In this document: in pieces, positions 30,001-39,000 of the stretch | How positions within the stretch are numbered: position 1 is the first letter of the stretch | How the letters are laid out: each line of letters opens with the position of its first letter | From: Candidatus Collierbacteria bacterium GW2011_GWB2_45_17 | GTDB lineage: Bacteria; Patescibacteriota; Microgenomatia; UBA1400; MFAQ01 | NCBI GenBank assembly: GCA_001001485.1 | Contig: LCKO01000001.1 | Span: 76,517-140,516, forward strand | Reading direction: 5' to 3' | DNA: 64,000 nucleotides | Position numbers: made by a program

Positions 30001-33000
30001 AATAAATATAGAAAATAATCAATCGTTATTTTGAGATGTAGCGGGATTTGGCCTATTGGCCAGAGTGAGTGCTACGCAGATACACTATTATTCACGATCT
30101 TGATCAAAAATATGATCAATATCACTCCATCGATTTGCTTTTCCTGTTTTAAAAAAGCTTTTTGGATTCTCTTGTATATATCTAATCTCATCGTCCTGCA
30201 GCTCTAGTCCACACATTGGACACTTCATATACCTATATGGAAATTGTAGGGTTCCGTCTGGATTCCAGTCATAATCGATACCAATAATCAACCACAACGT
30301 ATCATTCTTACATGACGGACACTGACAATCTTCTATAAATGCATCTACATCATCAGGACCAAGCACGACATTTGTCTTTGAGAACTCTTTGATTTGCCCA
30401 GGAGTAAGTCTTTCATATTTGTCCTCAAAAAAAGTTATCTTTTTCATTAAATTTCCTTCAAATAGGTCTATCATGCTTTTGGTGACCTTCTCGAGTCTTT
30501 TCCAGAGAGATACATCAAGTGAAACAATCTTTGGTGAGGCAATGTGTACAGGTCTTTGGGCTAATGGTTCTAAAAACGAATACATAAACGGAAAAATATC
30601 CTTCGCCAGCAACAGATTAATATCGTCTAAATTGATATTTATCTCGTGATGTACAACTTCATTCCGCAGTTTAGATAATTCTAATAGTTTATCCATAATT
30701 GCAGATAAATCTACAAATTGGTTCAATCTTTTTAAGATAATTACAAAATTGGCTGTTCTCAACTCTTGTTTATTATTTTTTGTTCTATTAGTTGTTTTTC
30801 CCTCTAGTGAAAAAATTTTGATAACTTGTATACCTTCGTCATCAATTCGTTCCAAAATTAAAGCAGGGCAGATTCCCTTTAAGTATTCCTTAAATATTAA
30901 TTCAATAGAAATTTGAGTTTTGATCAAACAACTAACTATTCTTCGAGCATCGTTCCCAGATTCTAAAAATTCTTTTAAGCCTTCCTCTAGCAAATCAACA
31001 GAATCATACCCATATGATGTGTGAGTTTCGTCTCCGAACCTAGTTTTTTTGTGTCGATATACGCCTCCCATTAAAGTAATATAACATCCCCGGTCGCTTG
31101 AAGTACGGAGTAAATAAAATCCACTTATTCAGCGACTTTTCTAGATTTCTTCACTCATATCAAGAATATCAACGGGCAAGTCATCCTCAACTCCTTCATC
31201 AAGCATTTTTATTGCTTTCCAAAACTCATCAGGAATTTCGAGACTCCCTATCTTTGTTGTACCTTCTGGAACTGTAACTAATTTAGCAAGACTGAATCCT
31301 GGTTGTTCACACTCAACTATTTCTCCTGGTTTGTCATTTTCTTTCAGAACGTAGAGACACATTAATTCTCCCTGGTGAACTTGCAGGGAAAAACTAACTT
31401 CCTCAATCAAAGAATCATATTTATATACTGCTAGACCATCGGGGGTAATGTGGAACAATAAAAATTTTCCTTGTTGGATGTTTTCGTCAAAAACATGATC
31501 TGTCTCTACATATTGAACGGGTGTTCTGTGTCCTGGCATTACTTCAACTAAGGCCCCATCAACTATTTCATCAGAGACATCTTCATATTTCCAAGTTTTG
31601 AATCTAACTCCTTTAATTTCTTCCAAAACCGTCCACTCACTCGCAACTATTGGTCCAGAAAATTCCTCATTGGCAATAATGCCTCCATTTGGACTCTCAA
31701 AATCAATTCCGTGTTCTTTGGTTGTCATGGCACAAATTATACTTCAATTGGGATACTCAACAACAATTTGGGAATAATTGTTCTATATCCGATAATATAT
31801 TTATATTAAATTTTTGCGTTTTCTGTCGCTTTTTGAAAGATAAACAGATTATTGTGGAATGGGAAAAGCCCTTCGCATCGCTCCGCGCGTGGGCGGGCGC
31901 GCGGGCGACCTCCCCGAATGTGGGCGAGATTTCCCAGAGTGTTGGCGGTTTACGAAAAATGTCGAACTTCATTTGATTAGCTCGGCCTTCGGCCTCGCTT
32001 GCTCCGGCGCGGCGCCCCCACCCGCCGCGCCTCCGCTATTTTTTGAGCGCGCGATTTTCTCGCCCTTCGGGCGAGCGAGGAAGAAATTTTTAGTTTTCCT
32101 TGCCCCGTCCGCCCACGCGCGGAAATAATTTTAGCTCCCACAATAATATCAGAATTAAATTACAAATTTAATTCGAATTCATAATTTCTGATACCTTGTT
32201 ATTTTCTTCTATTAAAAAGATCCTAGTAAAATTATGATTAATTCCATTAATAGCTGTTTTAAAGATATTAGCGTCAGCCAAAGGATAATTGTTTATAACA
32301 CCTAGCCATTTTTCACCATTATTGCTATTTATTTCTTTGAGCTTTGACTCTTTTTCTTTAATTATTTTGTCTAGTATTAATTGCGTTTGCTCTTGAATGA
32401 CAATAATGGGGTTTTTGTCTGTTATTGCTCCTATAATTGCTTTACGCCTGTTGTCACCATGACTAATTTCATGAACTTCAACGATTTCTCCATAAATTTT
32501 CAAGTTTCTATTTCCAGGTGGCTTATTTTTTCTTATTAACTTATCCAAAGTTCTCACGAGACCTTTTTTGAATTTATTGAAATTTTTTACAGGCACTTTG
32601 AAAACCAACATTATAGATTTTCCTTTAGGAACCAGATTTTTGTATTTATTATCTAGTTGATTGCAAAATTTAATAAGGGTTTCCGTAGAAGTTCTTTTCT
32701 TGCTTTTCTCGTTTTCATCTTTATAAATAGATTCTGCCGTGGTAATTTCTAATGGGGTTTTATTACCACTACTATCGACACAATAGTAATCTGGAGGATC
32801 TCCACCCGGTACTATTTCAAAAGGTGGATATGAGATTGATTCAAGATAAACCTTTATCGACTTTTTCGCGTATTCTTCATCAACTCGCATCATAAATAAT
32901 GATTCGTCCTTAAACTGAAGACATTGTGTATAAAAATCATAATCATAAGTAGTTTATCATATAGAAGTATATCTGTTTGCACTATCACAATCCCCATTGA

Positions 33001-36000: not shown

Positions 36001-39000
36001 CTTTCCGAAAATGTTAAACGAGGTAACCGCCAAAAACTCCGCCGTGGCGAGTGGCCGAATCAAGCAACTTTTGGTTACTTAAATATCAACAAAAAGATCG
36101 AAGTTGATAAGAAACGAGCCAAGTATGTGCAAAAAGCTTTTCAGCTTTTTGCTTCCGGCGGCTACGGATATGCGGACATCCGAAAATTTTTCAACCAAAA
36201 CAAAATTTTCAACAAGTCCGGTCATGAACTCCACCTTGATAAAGTCAAAAGAATTTTGACCGATCCGTTCTACTATGGAGTGATGAGATTTTGCGGCGAA
36301 CTTTATGAAGGAAAACACCAGCCCTTAATTAGCAAGAAGCTTTTTGATAAATGTCAAGAAGTTGTGAAACTCAAAAGCAGAAAGGTTAAAAACAACAAAC
36401 ATCTTTTTGATTTTCTGGGACTTGTAAAGTGCGGCGAATGTGGCGGCGCAATCACCGCTGAAATGCATACAAAGAATTACAAACGAACTAATAGAACGGT
36501 TGAGTATGTATATTACCGTTGTTCAAAAAAGAAAGGTGCTTGCTCGCAAAAATATATTGATAAAGAGGAAATTCAGAAACAACTAAAAGAGATTGTTTTG
36601 CGAGCATCTCTGCCGCCGCACGCCGCCAAAAAATTTCTTGAGTGGGCGGATAAAGACGTAAGTCAAGAAAAGGATAAATCATCGAGAATTATTTCGACTT
36701 ATCAACTGCAACTCAAGGAAACTGAGGAGAAAACTGATCGTTTGCTTGAAGGATATTTAGACAAGATAATTTCTCCTGAAGATTACCAAAAGAAAAAGAA
36801 CGAACTGGTTGAAACAAAATCGCTTCTAAGTTCCAAAATTAAGGAGATTTCTACAAACGGCGTTGAATGGCTCGAACCTTTCCAGGAATTCGTAAATAGT
36901 GCGCTTTCAGCGCAAAAAATCGCGCGCAAGGGTTCCGCGGACTCAGAACTGCGGTTCTTCGTCCAAAACATCGGTTCGAACTTCTTTTTGAAAGATAAAC
37001 AGATTATTGTGGAATGGGAAAAGCCCTTCGCATCGCTCCGCGCGTGGGCGGGCGCGCGGGCGACTGACCCCGTTCCTACCGAAATGTCCCGAAGTGTTGC
37101 CGGACTAGGACTCGAACCTAGAATATTCGCCTTCAGAGGGCGACGTCCTACCAATTAGACGATCCGGCAATATGAGCTTATTTTACCTTATTTGGCCATA
37201 AAAACTTCACTATTTTTCTTTCGTAAACTTATTCATCAAAGGTATAAACATGGGCAAACTGATCTAGATATCCGGACTTTTTAGTATCCGGATCGATGTC
37301 AATCGTCATTAGAGAAATAATGGCTTGGGGGTTCATTTCTTTAATTTTTGCAATCATTACTCTGGATGTGTAGGTTTCCATGACAGCATCATCGGCAATC
37401 AGAATATGTTCTCCGGAGAGGGAAAGATTTTCGGGGAGGTAGCCATTAACCGGCTGAATTCCACTGCGGGAAAAAACCATATGATCTACCGGCAAGGGGT
37501 GTTGAAATTTCTTGGACATTATTAGACCCAAATATTCTCCTATTATGCAACCGGACACCGCCGCTGTAATAATATGTGTCACCCTATCTTTAATGGCCGC
37601 CTCCGCGACATCACCAAACTGTCCTATGACTCGGCGCATTTCCCAAAAACCACTGTTTCGGTAACGCTGCTGTTCACTCGCCCTGGTGATATCCTCTTGG
37701 GTTATTCCGAGAATGTTGTTCACCGAAAAAAGTGAACTATGAAACCGTCCAAGAGCATCAGAAGAAATATGACCATTGTCCACAATCTCGGACGCAAAGT
37801 CTTGTGAATAGAATTTAATAAGCTCAAATACATACTCTGTCGGTTGGGGTAAAGAGGAAATTGGTGGATCTCTCTTGTAAAGAGTGATCCACAAAGCCAA
37901 AGCCCTCAGCTGATCCATGTCTCGCTCATAGCGAAGCATTTCGTTGTAGTTACTCAAAAAAATCTCCACGAATCCTACTTCCTCGCCACAATTATTCCCG
38001 TCGAACGGAAGCTTTCCAGCTCGCCATCTGAGAAGCCAAAGTCATCCTTCCACTTGTTTTTGAGATAGGGGATAGTCGAAGATCGCTGGAAAAGAACCGA
38101 CATCCCCAGAAGCCTAAATATCTGGTCGTATTCTTCAAAACTTACCGGTACATAATTTTCCTTTCCCTCTCTTTCCCAGTTATCATCATACATATATTTC
38201 AGCAAAAAGTGATTTAATTGTTTGACACTATTCATCACCCCAAAAATATTTTCAAAGTCGGCCAGCAGGGGAGCTATTTCCGCCTTAGCTTTTACTTTTT
38301 CTTTCATTTCCTTTACCCAAAGTTGAGATTTACCGGCATAGTCATAGAGAATCATGTCGCGGATAATCAAAGTTCCTTGGGGATTCAAAATCTCATGAGC
38401 ATCGGCCAGGGCTTTGACGACAGTGGAGATACCCTCACCGTAAGAAAAAAATTCATGCAATACCGAGCAAAATAAAGCCACGTCAAATCTTTCCGGATTA
38501 ACAAGTCTTTCTCTCAAAAAGCCGCATTCGAACTTTACATTTTTCCTCTCTCCAACACACTCTTGAGCTTTCTTAACAAACTCTTCATCCAAGTCGATCC
38601 CCACAAAGCTAATAGTAGGGTACATATCAGCCAAAGCCAGAGTTACCGTTCCATCGGCACAGCCCACATCCAGAATCGACCGTGTGTCTTGGGGGATAAA
38701 ACGGGCAATTTTCAGTTTTTCCTGAAGTGGTTTGCTCATACGCTCAAGGTAGAGTTTTGGGTTGGCGATTTCCTCCATTCGTCTATTTTATGCTACAATC
38801 GGCCAGTTGGAAACAGAACCCTAAAAAGGAGCCTAGCATGACCCAAAGTTGGATATTTGATGCCAAAATTAAAGTCTTGATGGAAAATGAAGCCAAATGG
38901 GCAGAACATCAGGATAAAAGGCGTGAGCGCGCCCAAACAATTCGTACTTTTGAAGAAAAAATAGCCCAAACCAGGTACGAAATAGAAATGGTGCTGGAGG

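What the first reader, a model, noticed from the sequence alone, without database searches (positions are those of the whole stretch)
31829..37169. tRNA-proximal element: large serine recombinase, identical 80-bp direct repeats, and 3.3-kb low-GC cargo bracketed by perfect 91-bp inverted repeats
DR-A (31829-31909) and DR-B (36985-37064) are identical 80-mers. DR-B overlaps the 3' end of the serine-recombinase ORF and sits 32 nt from the tRNA-Gln 3' end. Inside, a perfect inverted repeat (31943-32033 versus the reverse complement of 35304-35394) brackets three AT-rich genes: 32168-32893 (-), an S26-like peptidase 33037-34338 (+), and 34356-35102 (-). The IR sequence itself contains a partial copy of the att-like block. 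Long perfect IRs next to a serine recombinase suggest either a recombinase-driven invertible segment or a nested IR-bounded insertion inside the integrated element. The recombinase ORF reads through the DR into the tRNA, so its real C-terminus is uncertain.
Basis: partly seen in the sequence, partly recalled or inferred. Interest (0 to 1): 0.7.

Follow-up and report, generated by a model that had tools for sequence, protein, structure and literature searches.

The report
Serine-recombinase element inserted in tRNA-Gln
This is a 5.2-kb mobile element inserted at the 3' end of a tRNA-Gln gene by a large serine recombinase; its long repeats are the arms of the recombination sites, and the same unusual layout, apparently undescribed, recurs next to many tRNA genes across Patescibacteria (candidate phyla radiation).

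Summary
There is a perfect 81-nt direct repeat and a perfect 93-nt inverted repeat. A 518-aa large serine recombinase (LSR) ORF has no stop codon until it is inside an antisense tRNA-Gln.

Eighty related loci explain the repeats. In 61 of 71 usable loci the LSR ORF runs into an antisense tRNA about 1494 nt after its ATG. The usual layout is: host|Z, cargo, inverted (Q|Z), LSR ending in Q|tRNA. Q is the last ~105 nt of the ORF. Z is a pseudo-tRNA 3' end whose T-loop motif sits 4-5 nt further from the crossover than in the real tRNA. I recall that spacing as the attP/attB half-site rule of LSRs.

The window's inverted repeat is therefore the Z arm of attL paired with the Z arm of an internal inverted attP copy. 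The direct repeat is a recombinase-tail arm present at both ends. It arose because the recombinase is a mosaic and the tRNA-Gln site was already occupied; older remnants lie at 23.7 and 27.4 kb.

All contigs show one orientation, and no excision junction was found. The role of the internal attP is unresolved. I found no published description. Verdict: a new variant of a known kind.

The parts
23672..23742 (+). Oldest remnant of an XY-type recombinase-tail arm joined to a pseudo-tRNA arm (site 0)
   Evidence: blastn with the XY block and with the internal attP of L036: 83-87% identity
27310..27494 (+). Older XY-type left junction (site 1): truncated tail arm, then 'GTGTTG', then the pseudo-tRNA arm Z_xy. 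GC-rich hairpin-rich sequence follows to about 27860
   Evidence: 91% identity over 131 nt to the internal attP of L036; sequence read; GC peak of 0.57
31806..31828 (+). W motif (AATTTTTGCGTTTT) plus CTGTCG, as at the outer edge of XY-type internal attP copies
   Evidence: GCGTTTTCTGTCGCTTTTTGAAAGATA is also found in the internal attP of L036. W also occurs at 35250 (+) and 35529 (-)
31829..31909 (+). DR-A: block X, a non-coding copy of the 3' end of an XY-type recombinase gene, with a GC hairpin
   Evidence: 100% identical to 36984-37064; hairpin; X plus Y is 99% identical to the recombinase tail of L033
31910..31942 (+). Block Y: the variable 33 nt between X and the crossover, forming the left arm of the left junction
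   Evidence: The aligned Y stretch is identical to that of L033 in the alignment (X plus Y 99%). It is about 60% like Y* at 37065-37097
31943..32035 (+). IR-L: block Z, the P' arm of attL. It starts with the TG core (31943-31944), then a pseudo-tRNA 3' end with TCGAAC, an in-frame stop codon and two GC hairpins
32036..32160 (+). Block V: T-run after the Z hairpin (terminator-like), then an inverted copy of the recombinase 'AAAATCGCGCGC' segment and a hairpin
   Evidence: Conserved next to Z+ in 29 of 30 loci
32168..32893 (-). Cargo gene 1, 241 aa, no confident family
33037..34338 (+). Cargo gene 2, 433 aa, membrane-anchored signal peptidase I-like (S26) protein with a long C-terminal extension
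   Evidence: Pfam PF10502 at 3.4e-24 and TIGR02227 at 3.3e-26
34356..35102 (-). Cargo gene 3, 248 aa, weak DUF5677 match below the Pfam cut-off
35200..35303 (+). Block U: long hairpin plus W T-tract (terminator-like, reading towards the internal attP), a second hairpin and an inverted copy of the recombinase 'AAACTGTCGGCTCG' segment
35304..35396 (-). IR-R: block Z of the internal inverted attP copy; the core reads CA on the + strand at 35395-35396
35397..35529 (-). Q-type P arm of the internal attP (35397-35503) plus W' (35504-35529). 91-97% identical to the tails and internal copies of Q-type relatives, but only about 65% like this recombinase's own tail
35530..35601 (+). Spacer: a hairpin that forms a minus-strand terminator together with W', then an AT-rich leader before the recombinase ATG
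   Evidence: conserved in relatives
35602..37158 (+). Large serine recombinase ORF as integrated (518 aa). It is a mosaic: about nt 1-1320 are Q-type, and the part from about 36920 onwards is XY-type
36984..37064 (+). DR-B: block X, coding here (FFLKDKQIIVEWEKPFASLRAWAGARAT)
37065..37099 (+). Block Y* plus the TG core (37098-37099) of attR. The core is the last two base pairs of the tRNA acceptor stem
37096..37169 (-). tRNA-Gln(CTG), the integration target (B' arm). Its last few 3' nucleotides are supplied by the element

Best explanation
The region from about 31943 to 37099 is an integrated, roughly 5.2-kb member of a large family of small elements in Patescibacteria (candidate phyla radiation). 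A large serine recombinase (LSR) moves these elements into the 3' end of tRNA genes.

The crossover is a short core (TG here) in the last base pairs of the acceptor stem. The right junction (attR) is the recombinase tail joined to the tRNA, so the last ~35 codons of the recombinase ORF are also the P arm of its own attP. In the integrated state the ORF therefore has no stop codon and runs antisense into the tRNA. The left junction (attL) is flank|Z. Z is a pseudo-tRNA 3' end that carries the stop codon and terminator the gene would regain in the excised circle; the predicted protein is then 509 aa ending ...SRSVGGLRKMSNFI.

Between the cargo and the recombinase every family member keeps a complete inverted copy of attP, insulated by terminators on both sides. 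This copy creates two inverted-repeat pairs: Z/Z' around the cargo and Q'/Q around the recombinase.

The window departs from the canonical layout in two ways:
- The recombinase is a recombinant. It has a Q-type body and an XY-type tail, so its tail no longer matches the Q-type internal attP.
- The flank to the left of attL is an XY-type arm left by an earlier occupant of the same tRNA-Gln site, not host DNA.

Together these two facts produce the 81-nt direct repeat.

Shown: the anatomy, the family-wide recurrence, the three-way att relationships and the mosaic. Inferred: that the recombinase catalyses attP x attB at these sites, that the site was filled by successive insertions, and what the internal attP does. 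My best guess is that the internal attP is a working recombinase site that allows occasional cassette inversion or helps synapsis.
For: - Recombinase identity: Resolvase, Recombinase and Zn_ribbon_recom domains. Distant matches to XisF and CcrA/B/C, all below their cut-offs.
- tRNA association: in 61 of 71 related loci an antisense tRNA starts 1470-1567 nt (median 1494) after the ATG. Eleven tRNA species are involved.
- Inverted-repeat pairs: about 40 of 67 loci analysed have a Z pair and about 57 have a Q pair, typically 95-100% identical.
- Three-way att table for 32 loci: attL and the internal copy share the right arm, the internal copy and attR share the left arm, and the overlap is usually 4-9 nt (2-27 across loci; 2 nt, TG, in the window). 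Left flanks are unrelated between loci.
- Half-site spacing: the TTCGAAC-like motif lies 4-5 nt further from the core in Z than in the tRNA in 40 of 45 loci. The ORF is open up to the core in 44 of 45. Z supplies an in-frame stop 29-63 nt past the core, whereas the stop in the tRNA-side flank falls 5-366 nt past it.
- Coding constraint on Q: the gap that spans it (from TTCTTTTTAA to ACTGGCTG) is 102 or 123 nt, so the loop insertion is 21 nt and in frame.
- Mosaic recombinase: 80-95% identical to Q-type genes up to about nt 1320, then 95-100% identical to XY-type genes whose bodies are only about 60% identical.
- Earlier occupants: older XY-type sites at 23.7 and 27.4 kb. Q-like left flanks also occur in L075 and L030.
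- Horizontal transfer: recombinases 83-90% identical occur in different candidate phyla.
- Not an artefact: more than 20 independent contigs show the same arrangement.
Against: - There is no direct evidence of activity. The excision/circle junction Y*|Z was absent from JGI metagenome contigs. No empty site turned up among 24 contigs. No full-length recombinase with a Q|Z tail was recovered.
- No recombination directionality factor is evident among the cargo genes.
- The left (P and B) arms show no clear dyad symmetry with the right arms, which is unusual for LSR sites.
- In this window the tail arm (XY) and the internal attP arm (Q) are of different types, so this copy may be partly disabled.
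- The accretion history is a reconstruction. In particular, the W motif directly abutting DR-A requires an extra inversion-plus-deletion step that I infer but cannot show.
- Short repeated modules remain unexplained: a 24-mer, a 26-nt palindrome and a 17-mer of the recombinase tail that recur at the cargo edges.
Confidence: 0.8

Rival explanations
1. The 3.3-kb cargo is a phase-variable invertible segment. The recombinase flips it frequently between the 93-nt inverted repeats to switch gene expression.
For: - The inverted repeat is perfect and lies next to a serine recombinase.
- Each arm contains a full recombinase half-site plus the core, so inversion would regenerate the same site types.
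- One related locus, L030, has the cargo in the opposite orientation.
- Recombinase-less remnants (L090, L091, L098, P0013, P0014, P0017) have the structure expected if an inversion were followed by deletion between the resulting direct repeats.
- Several contigs break at or near the repeats.
Against: - Every assembled contig of this population has the same orientation.
- 29 of 30 related loci share one orientation. All 61 tRNA-linked recombinases point into the tRNA.
- No promoter logic links orientation to expression. The promoter-like count equals the shuffled expectation.
- Terminators insulate the internal site.
- The one flipped locus, L030, has a decayed recombinase gene.
Confidence: 0.2
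2. The cargo with its inverted repeats is an independent transposon, bounded by terminal inverted repeats, that inserted into an older integrated element.
For: The cargo has lower GC than its surroundings and long perfect terminal inverted repeats. Cargo content is unrelated between family members.
Against: - The cargo encodes no transposase.
- There is no target-site duplication.
- The left arm begins exactly at the att core.
- The right arm is contiguous with an inverted copy of the recombinase tail, so together they form a whole attP.
- The arm sequences are conserved backbone in more than 40 loci while the cargo differs.
Confidence: 0.04
3. The 81-nt direct repeats are the true attL/attR identity segment, as in tyrosine-integrase tRNA islands, and excision happens by recombination within them.
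For: The direct repeats are perfect, bracket the element and lie next to a tRNA.
Against: - The only recombinase present is a serine recombinase.
- The repeat stops 31-32 nt short of the tRNA and does not overlap it.
- Canonical family members have no such direct repeat. Their left flank is unrelated host DNA.
- The repeat is explained by the mosaic tail and a pre-occupied site.
- RecA-dependent deletion between the repeats is possible, but that would be loss of the element, not its mechanism of mobility.
Confidence: 0.05
4. The repeats are an assembly artefact, such as a collapsed or chimeric repeat.
For: Some contigs end at the repeats. Two 2015 assemblies give recombinase variants with odd tail-to-tRNA fusions.
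Against: - The arrangement is identical in more than 20 contigs from different assemblers and samples.
- The repeats are shorter than the final k-mer of the k141 (MEGAHIT-style) contigs.
- The same architecture occurs in dozens of other genomes, including complete chromosomes.
Confidence: 0.01

Closest known systems
Large serine recombinase (serine integrase) integrative elements: phiC31, Bxb1, A118/LI, TP901-1, SCCmec CcrAB, XisF and the fdxN element
   Same: - Same three-domain recombinase.
- Short crossover core with non-identical attP and attB.
- attL and attR are hybrids of the two parental sites.
- The conserved motif lies 4-5 bp further out in the attP-type half-site than in the attB-type half-site. 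From my own recollection of the LI integrase-DNA structural work (Rutherford and Van Duyne), this is the spacing rule for LSRs.
- The integration module sits at one end of the element.
   Different: - The target is the 3' end of tRNA genes. Mageeney et al. 2020 state that use of t(m)RNA genes by S-Ints had not been reported previously, and found it in only 14 of 297 cases (PMC7192596).
- The recombinase ORF runs through its own attP arm and across the crossover.
- A complete inverted attP copy is kept inside the element.
- The elements are tiny (3-9 kb), with one to a few unrelated cargo genes and no recognisable directionality factor.
- Sequence similarity to named LSR families is below their cut-offs.
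SSV1-type tyrosine integrases of Sulfolobus viruses (attP inside the int gene; integration into a tRNA gene partitions int). Cited from my own knowledge, not tested here.
   Same: The recombination site overlaps the recombinase gene and the target is a tRNA gene, so the encoded protein differs between the integrated and excised states.
   Different: - The enzyme family and chemistry differ (tyrosine versus serine).
- SSV int is split into two fragments flanking the provirus.
- Here only the extreme C-terminal tail changes (predicted 509 aa excised versus 518 aa integrated).
- SSV has direct repeats of the tRNA segment, whereas this element has a core of only about 2-6 nt.
Serine invertase systems (Hin, Gin, Cin, Pin/Min multiple-inversion systems) and the yeast 2-micron plasmid Flp/FRT inverted repeats. 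Cited from my own knowledge.
   Same: Inverted recombination sites bracket defined segments next to the recombinase gene. Inversion would regenerate the same site types. The excised circle would carry two inverted sites that divide it into two arcs, as in the 2-micron plasmid.
   Different: - The recombinase is a large integrase-type enzyme, not a small invertase with an enhancer and Fis.
- The arms are att arms of an integrative element.
- One orientation dominates overwhelmingly.
- No replication origin is known.
Folded single-stranded att sites (CTXphi attP(+), integron attC). Cited from my own knowledge.
   Same: Two inverted copies of an att sequence in one strand could anneal to rebuild a duplex attP. 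If only the top strand were exchanged, the integrated product would contain the uncut strand as an internal inverted copy, which is the topology seen here.
   Different: - Those systems use tyrosine recombinases that exchange one pair of strands. Serine recombinases make concerted double-strand breaks.
- The arms here are separated by kilobases.
- There is no evidence for a single-stranded stage.

Membership tests
Large serine recombinase (serine integrase) family | N-terminal resolvase-type catalytic domain with a serine nucleophile | tested here: met
   PF00239 over residues 5-151, E = 4.3e-21. The N-terminal domain aligns to PDB 3g13, with YCRKST against YCRVST.
Large serine recombinase (serine integrase) family | Recombinase domain followed by a zinc-ribbon domain with Cys ligands | tested here: met
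   PF07508 over residues 171-256 and PF13408 over 272-330. Cysteines at 277, 280, 307 and 314.
Large serine recombinase (serine integrase) family | Coiled-coil insertion in the zinc-ribbon domain that controls directionality | not tested
   Residues of roughly 345-440 look heptad-rich by eye. No structure prediction or coiled-coil prediction was run.
Large serine recombinase (serine integrase) family | Short attP and attB sites with a 2-bp crossover, hybrid attL/attR, and the attP half-site motif displaced about 5 bp outward | tested here: met
   Three-way comparison in 32 loci, with a shared core of mostly 4-9 nt (TG, 2 nt, in the window). Motif shift of 4-5 nt in 40 of 45 loci. This is a sequence inference, not biochemistry.
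Large serine recombinase (serine integrase) family | Catalysis of integration, and excision with a directionality factor | not testable with these tools
   No circle or empty-site junction was found in assembled contigs. No candidate directionality factor was identified.
Named LSR subfamilies (XisF, CcrA/B/C) | Score above the NCBIfam equivalog cut-off | tested here: not met
   93.5 bits against a cut-off of 375 for XisF, and 92.5 against 900 for CcrB.
Small serine invertase switch (Hin/Gin type) | Recombinase of about 190 aa with a C-terminal helix-turn-helix; both orientations present in a population | tested here: not met
   The protein has 518 aa with LSR domains. More than 20 contigs show a single orientation.
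IS607-type serine transposon or TIR-bounded insertion sequence | Small serine transposase and promiscuous targets, or a transposase inside terminal inverted repeats with a target-site duplication | tested here: not met
   The IS607 model scores 31 bits against a cut-off of 110. Targets are tRNA 3' ends in 61 of 71 loci. The cargo between the repeats encodes no transposase.
Prophage or conjugative element | Phage structural genes or conjugation genes | tested here: not met
   None among the window cargo. There are no relatives in IMG/VR. Family cargo consists of 1-7 unrelated ORFs. The PHROGs library was not searched.

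The most novel reading that the evidence does not exclude
The internal inverted attP may be the key to a new way for a serine integrase to operate. Two readings are not excluded:

(a) Fold-back attP. The two repeat pairs (Z/Z' and Q'/Q) are the two strands of one attP. 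A single-stranded copy of the element, for example DNA taken up by competence, would rebuild a duplex attP by annealing them, as CTXphi and integron attC sites do. That would be unprecedented for a serine recombinase.

(b) Built-in partner site. The internal attP acts in cis, bridging attL and attR, or recombining with attR as if attR were an attB. This would give inversion or excision without a directionality factor.

In addition, the recombinase's C-terminal tail is rewritten by integration (tRNA-antisense-encoded versus Z-encoded), which could serve as a sensor of the integrated or excised state.
Probability: 0.12. Interest if true: 0.85.

Novelty: new variant of a known kind. Interest (0 to 1): 0.62.

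Why it matters
- Serine integrases are leading tools for inserting large DNA, and each new attP/attB pair is useful. This family offers dozens of natural recombinase/attP/attB sets in which the attB is a tRNA 3' end. Related enzymes are retargeted to at least eleven different tRNAs, which makes it a ready-made series for studying how LSR specificity evolves.
- tRNA genes were thought to be almost exclusively targets of tyrosine integrases (PMC7192596).
- The elements are among the few mobile elements defined in candidate-phyla-radiation bacteria. They move between candidate phyla: recombinases 83-90% identical occur in Gottesman-, Levy-, Blackburn-, Chisholm-, Collier-, Roizman- and Amesbacteria. 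They carry highly diverse single-gene cargo.
- Two features have no described counterpart among LSR elements that I could find: a recombinase ORF that crosses its own crossover point, and a conserved internal inverted attP.
- For this particular window the finding is a somewhat scrambled copy, possibly no longer fully functional.

Tried and rejected
- Rfam at a permissive threshold over 30.5-38.5 kb, and at gathering threshold over the whole window. Only the tRNA and an RNase P RNA were found, so the GC-rich blocks are not a known RNA family.
- PADLOC and NCBIfam on the cargo proteins. No defence system was found, only the S26 match.
- An exact search of JGI metagenome contigs for the predicted circle / flipped-recombinase junction Y*|Z gave 0 hits.
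- A gapped pattern for a recombinase tail followed by Q|Z gave 2 hits. Both are recombinase-less remnants, not excised forms.
- A scan of IMG/VR for relatives found none.
- A look-up of all contigs carrying the left-flank 195-aa gene, to find an empty site or another orientation, returned the same arrangement every time.
- A search for the W-Q|tRNA configuration (flipped recombinase cassette) in 80 loci found none. The only hit was the L044 remnant.
- A protein search with the predicted excised-form tail returned only short ORFs. Full-length proteins were not retrieved, so the result is uninformative about circles.
- I considered that two independent circles (cargo and recombinase) fuse. The clean rc(Z)|tRNA junction this predicts was not seen. 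The L044 remnant is instead a palindrome-type deletion of the recombinase.
- I considered pairing between the 5' UTR and 3' end of the recombinase mRNA through Q'/Q. This is unlikely because terminator-like hairpin plus T-tract sites bracket the internal attP.
- Six literature searches found no description of this family.

Full report
**1. The observation.**

The repeats are real and slightly longer than reported. The direct repeat is 81 nt (31829-31909 equals 36984-37064, 100%). The inverted repeat is 93 nt (31943-32035 against the reverse complement of 35304-35396, 100%). The only tRNA in the window is tRNA-Gln(CTG) at 37096-37169 on the minus strand.

ORF 35602-37158 encodes 518 aa with Resolvase, Recombinase and Zn_ribbon_recom domains, so it is a large serine recombinase, called REC below. 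Its first stop codon lies inside the tRNA. The three cargo ORFs are as described, and the middle one is a signal peptidase I-like protein.

The same arrangement, 99.9-100% identical, is present in more than 20 contigs from independent ENA, JGI and NCBI assemblies of groundwater metagenomes. The organism is a Candidatus Collierbacteria population of the GW2011_GWB2_45_17 type. Chance and assembly artefact are therefore excluded.

**2.

Homology does not stop at the end of DR-A. The left copy continues in diverged form. At the protein level it reads ARATSPNVGEISQSVGGL against ARATDPVPTEMSRSVAGL on the right. It then runs into a degenerate tRNA 3' end that retains TCGAAC.

The right arm of the inverted repeat is followed at 35397-35529 by a diverged, inverted copy of the GC-hairpin block of the recombinase tail. 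A short motif, W (AATTTTTGCGTTTT), occurs at 31806 (+), 35250 (+) and 35529 (-).

**3. The family.**

A scan of one genome per GTDB species found 330 relatives of REC. I analysed the best 80. All that carry a candidate-phylum or group name are Patescibacteria, mostly Microgenomates; many others are MAGs labelled only 'bacterium' or given other names such as 'uncultured Gammaproteobacteria'. The closest, at 83-90% protein identity, come from different candidate phyla.

- In 61 of 71 loci with enough downstream sequence, an antisense tRNA gene begins 1470-1567 nt (median 1494) after the ATG.
- The tRNA can be Gln, Lys, Glu, Leu, Pro, Val, Ile, Ser, Arg, Trp or Phe.
- The ORF is open up to the junction in 44 of 45 loci analysed.
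- A few members sit at non-tRNA sequences that still carry a TCGAAC-like motif at the tRNA spacing.

**4. The canonical architecture.**

On the REC strand the order is:

host flank | Z - V - cargo - U - rc(Z) | rc(Q) - W' - spacer - REC...Q | tRNA

- Q is the last ~105 nt of the REC ORF. It contains a 12-bp GC hairpin.
- Z is about 93 nt. It begins with a pseudo-tRNA 3' end and contains an in-frame stop codon and two GC hairpins. It is followed in V by a T-run, which makes it terminator-like.
- In 32 loci the three junctions form a strict three-way relationship. The left junction and the internal copy share the right arm (Z). The internal copy and the right junction share the left arm (Q). All three share a short core, usually 4-9 nt (2-27 across loci), such as GCTG, GTGA, GTGG or GTTG.
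- The sequences to the left of Z+ are unrelated between loci.

This is what attP (Q|Z) x attB (flank|tRNA) giving attL (flank|Z) and attR (Q|tRNA) predicts, with one addition: a complete inverted attP copy (called M below) inside the element.

**5. Serine-integrase logic of the sites.**

In 40 of 45 loci the TTCGAAC-like motif lies 4-5 nt further from the core in Z than in the tRNA. In the tRNA this motif is the T-loop read on the other strand. From my recollection of the LI integrase-DNA structural work, the zinc-ribbon-domain motif of LSR attP half-sites is displaced about 5 bp outward relative to attB half-sites. I used this as a lead. The spacing was measured here, but the protein-DNA contacts were not.

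In the window exactly two nucleotides, TG, are common to the three sites: 31943-31944, 37098-37099, and CA at 35395-35396. They correspond to the last two base pairs of the acceptor stem. The element therefore supplies the last few 3' nucleotides of the tRNA, which still scores as an intact tRNA (65 bits).

**6. The recombinase C-terminus.**

- Joining each REC to its own Z gives an in-frame stop 29-63 nt after the core in all 44 loci whose ORF is open to the core. In the integrated state the stop falls anywhere from 5 to 366 nt into the flank.
- The stretch that spans Q (from TTCTTTTTAA to ACTGGCTG) measures 102 or 123 nt, so the hairpin-loop insertion is 21 nt and in frame.
- Q is therefore translated. 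Z carries the natural stop and terminator that the gene regains in the excised circle.
- For the window, the predicted excised-form protein has 509 aa and ends ...SRSVGGLRKMSNFI.
- The conserved part of the protein ends near GSNFFL, at about residue 465. Beyond that the tail is subfamily-specific. That the folded protein ends there is an inference.

**7. Why the window has a direct repeat.**

REC is a mosaic. Up to about nt 1320 (window position about 36920, at the conserved AAAATCGCGCGC) it is 80-95% identical to Q-type genes (L010-L025). From there on it is 95-100% identical to XY-type genes (L033-L036), whose bodies are only about 60% identical to it. Its tail (X-Y*) therefore no longer matches the internal attP, which is still Q-type. 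This is why the canonical Q'/Q inverted repeat is missing in the window.

The flank to the left of Z+ is not host DNA. It is W-X-Y, an XY-type arm. X plus Y is 99% identical to the tail of L033, and the aligned Y stretch shows no difference. Its W-CTGTCG-CTTTTT edge is that of XY-type internal attP copies, seen as a 27-nt match in L036.

Two further XY-type junction remnants lie at 27310-27494 and 23672-23742 in the same orientation. L075 and L030 also have Q-like left flanks.

The simplest reading is repeated insertion at the same tRNA-Gln. Because the left half of attB is essentially arbitrary, the attR of a resident element can serve as attB for the next. Each insertion then leaves old-arm|new-Z on the left.

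To bring W-X-Y into direct orientation, I infer an inversion of the former recombinase cassette between its Q-type repeats, followed by deletion between the two W copies that then lie in direct orientation. This step is not shown.

**8. Is anything inverting?**

In this population, no. Every contig has the same orientation. Across the family, 29 of 30 loci have V next to Z+ and U next to Z-. L030 is flipped and has a decayed REC.

Recombinase-less remnants recur: L090, L091, L098, and ORFs P0013, P0014 and P0017. They have the form gene - hairpin - 24-mer - 26-nt palindrome - 17-mer - Q | (Z or tRNA). This is the product expected if a cargo inversion created direct 24-mer repeats that then deleted REC.

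L044 holds a remnant in which REC was lost by a deletion between the Q arms.

So inversions and repeat-mediated deletions do happen on evolutionary timescales. A fast switch is not supported.

**9. What the internal attP might do.**

It is conserved in every subfamily, down to 48% REC identity and across different tRNA targets. It is usually 95-100% identical to the outer arms over about 100 nt on each side, far more than a 25-bp half-site would require. It is bracketed by inward-facing terminator-like sites made of a hairpin plus the W T-tract.

Candidate roles, none tested:
- A recombinase site that permits cassette inversion. Both inversions would regenerate the same site types.
- A cis partner that helps attL and attR synapse without a directionality factor.
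- An autoregulatory operator.
- One strand of a fold-back attP in a single-stranded form of the element.

The last reading fits the topology exactly, but it conflicts with the double-strand-break chemistry of serine recombinases.

**10. Comparison with known systems and novelty.**

By domain content and site logic this is a serine integrase element. It scores far below the cut-offs of the named subfamilies XisF and CcrA/B/C. Only its catalytic domain matches a solved structure by sequence.

Mageeney et al. 2020 state that use of a t(m)RNA gene by an S-Int had not been reported previously. They found it in 14 of 297 cases and asked for experimental proof (PMC7192596). Six full-text searches found no description of this family or of an LSR element with an internal inverted attP.

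I therefore rate it a new variant of a known kind. The window copy itself is a rearranged, possibly crippled member.

**11. Limits.**

No junction diagnostic of excision or inversion was found in assembled data. Assemblies rarely capture minority forms, so this is weak negative evidence. The left arms show no obvious dyad symmetry with the right arms. The short modules shared between the REC tail and the cargo edges (the 24-mer, the 26-nt palindrome and the 17-mer) remain unexplained.

Noticed in passing
window 36918-36983, and related loci such as L014 9314-9380: The recombinase 3' region holds three short modules: a 24-mer (CAAAATCGCGCGCGCAAAAAATAG), a perfect 26-nt palindrome (TTGCCATGATT-TAGC-AATCATGGCAA; Q-type genes only) and a 17-mer (AAACTGTCGGCTCGAAC, itself T-loop-like). 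The 24-mer recurs inverted just after Z+. The 17-mer recurs inverted just before Z- (that is, directly after Z when the internal attP is read on the minus strand). Their order is not nested, and I have no explanation for them.
   Followed up: partly
window 23672-23742 and 27310-27860: Two older XY-type att remnants lie upstream of the finding, with GC-rich, hairpin-rich sequence after the second. The stretch from 23.7 to 37.1 kb therefore looks like a stack of islands built up at tRNA-Gln. It includes genes that look like housekeeping genes (peptide deformylase, a KsgA-like methyltransferase).
   Followed up: partly
window 24423-24719 and 28722-29144: Two paralogous small membrane-protein genes (MNKVLRL...HLIRDLLTNFGIHNYIVDFAH...) lie in two successive islands, which suggests related cargo or a segmental duplication.
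   Followed up: no
window 26338-26500, 27482-27840, 58781-58809, 15419-15455: Short GC-rich repeat fragments, 81-97% identical to parts of the 27.3-27.86 kb block, are scattered through the window.
   Followed up: no
window 30088-31071 (-): A 327-aa protein has HEPN-like matches (PADLOC PDC-S64 at 1.3e-7, weak Csm6/CARF-HEPN). It lies just left of the element, inside the older island.
   Followed up: no
window 4012-4316 (-): Bacterial RNase P RNA class A, 105.5 bits. This is just above the gathering score of 100, and the match is shorter than the 367-position model.
   Followed up: no
proteins P0003 and P0005 (GW2011 Microgenomates / Collierbacteria assemblies): In two 2015 assemblies the same recombinase ends ...RAWAGELDDPAI or ...RAWFRGRRPTN. 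The GC hairpin of block X is fused directly to internal parts of the tRNA-Gln. These are either deletions that destroy the tRNA or assembly errors at the hairpin.
   Followed up: no
L030 from about 9497; protein P0019: In one sub-lineage the recombinase tail is joined to a conserved protein-coding-like sequence (...LVDDFRKANWPEIIKYPELVYQ...) instead of a tRNA. This is possibly a different target class.
   Followed up: no
L044 3960-6300: A recombinase-less Gln-type remnant (Z, cargo, rc(Z), about 40 nt of rc(Q) fused to 16 nt of Q, then tRNA-Gln) sits immediately upstream of the left junction of an intact Lys-type element. A duplicated fragment of the tRNA-Gln 5' end lies between them.
   Followed up: partly
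L016, L022, L025 (Q hairpin loop): The loop of the GC hairpin in Q carries a 21-nt insertion (gap 123 instead of 102 nt), with sequence that differs between L022 and L025. In L022 and L025, where both copies were read, it is present in both copies of the locus and keeps the reading frame.
   Followed up: partly
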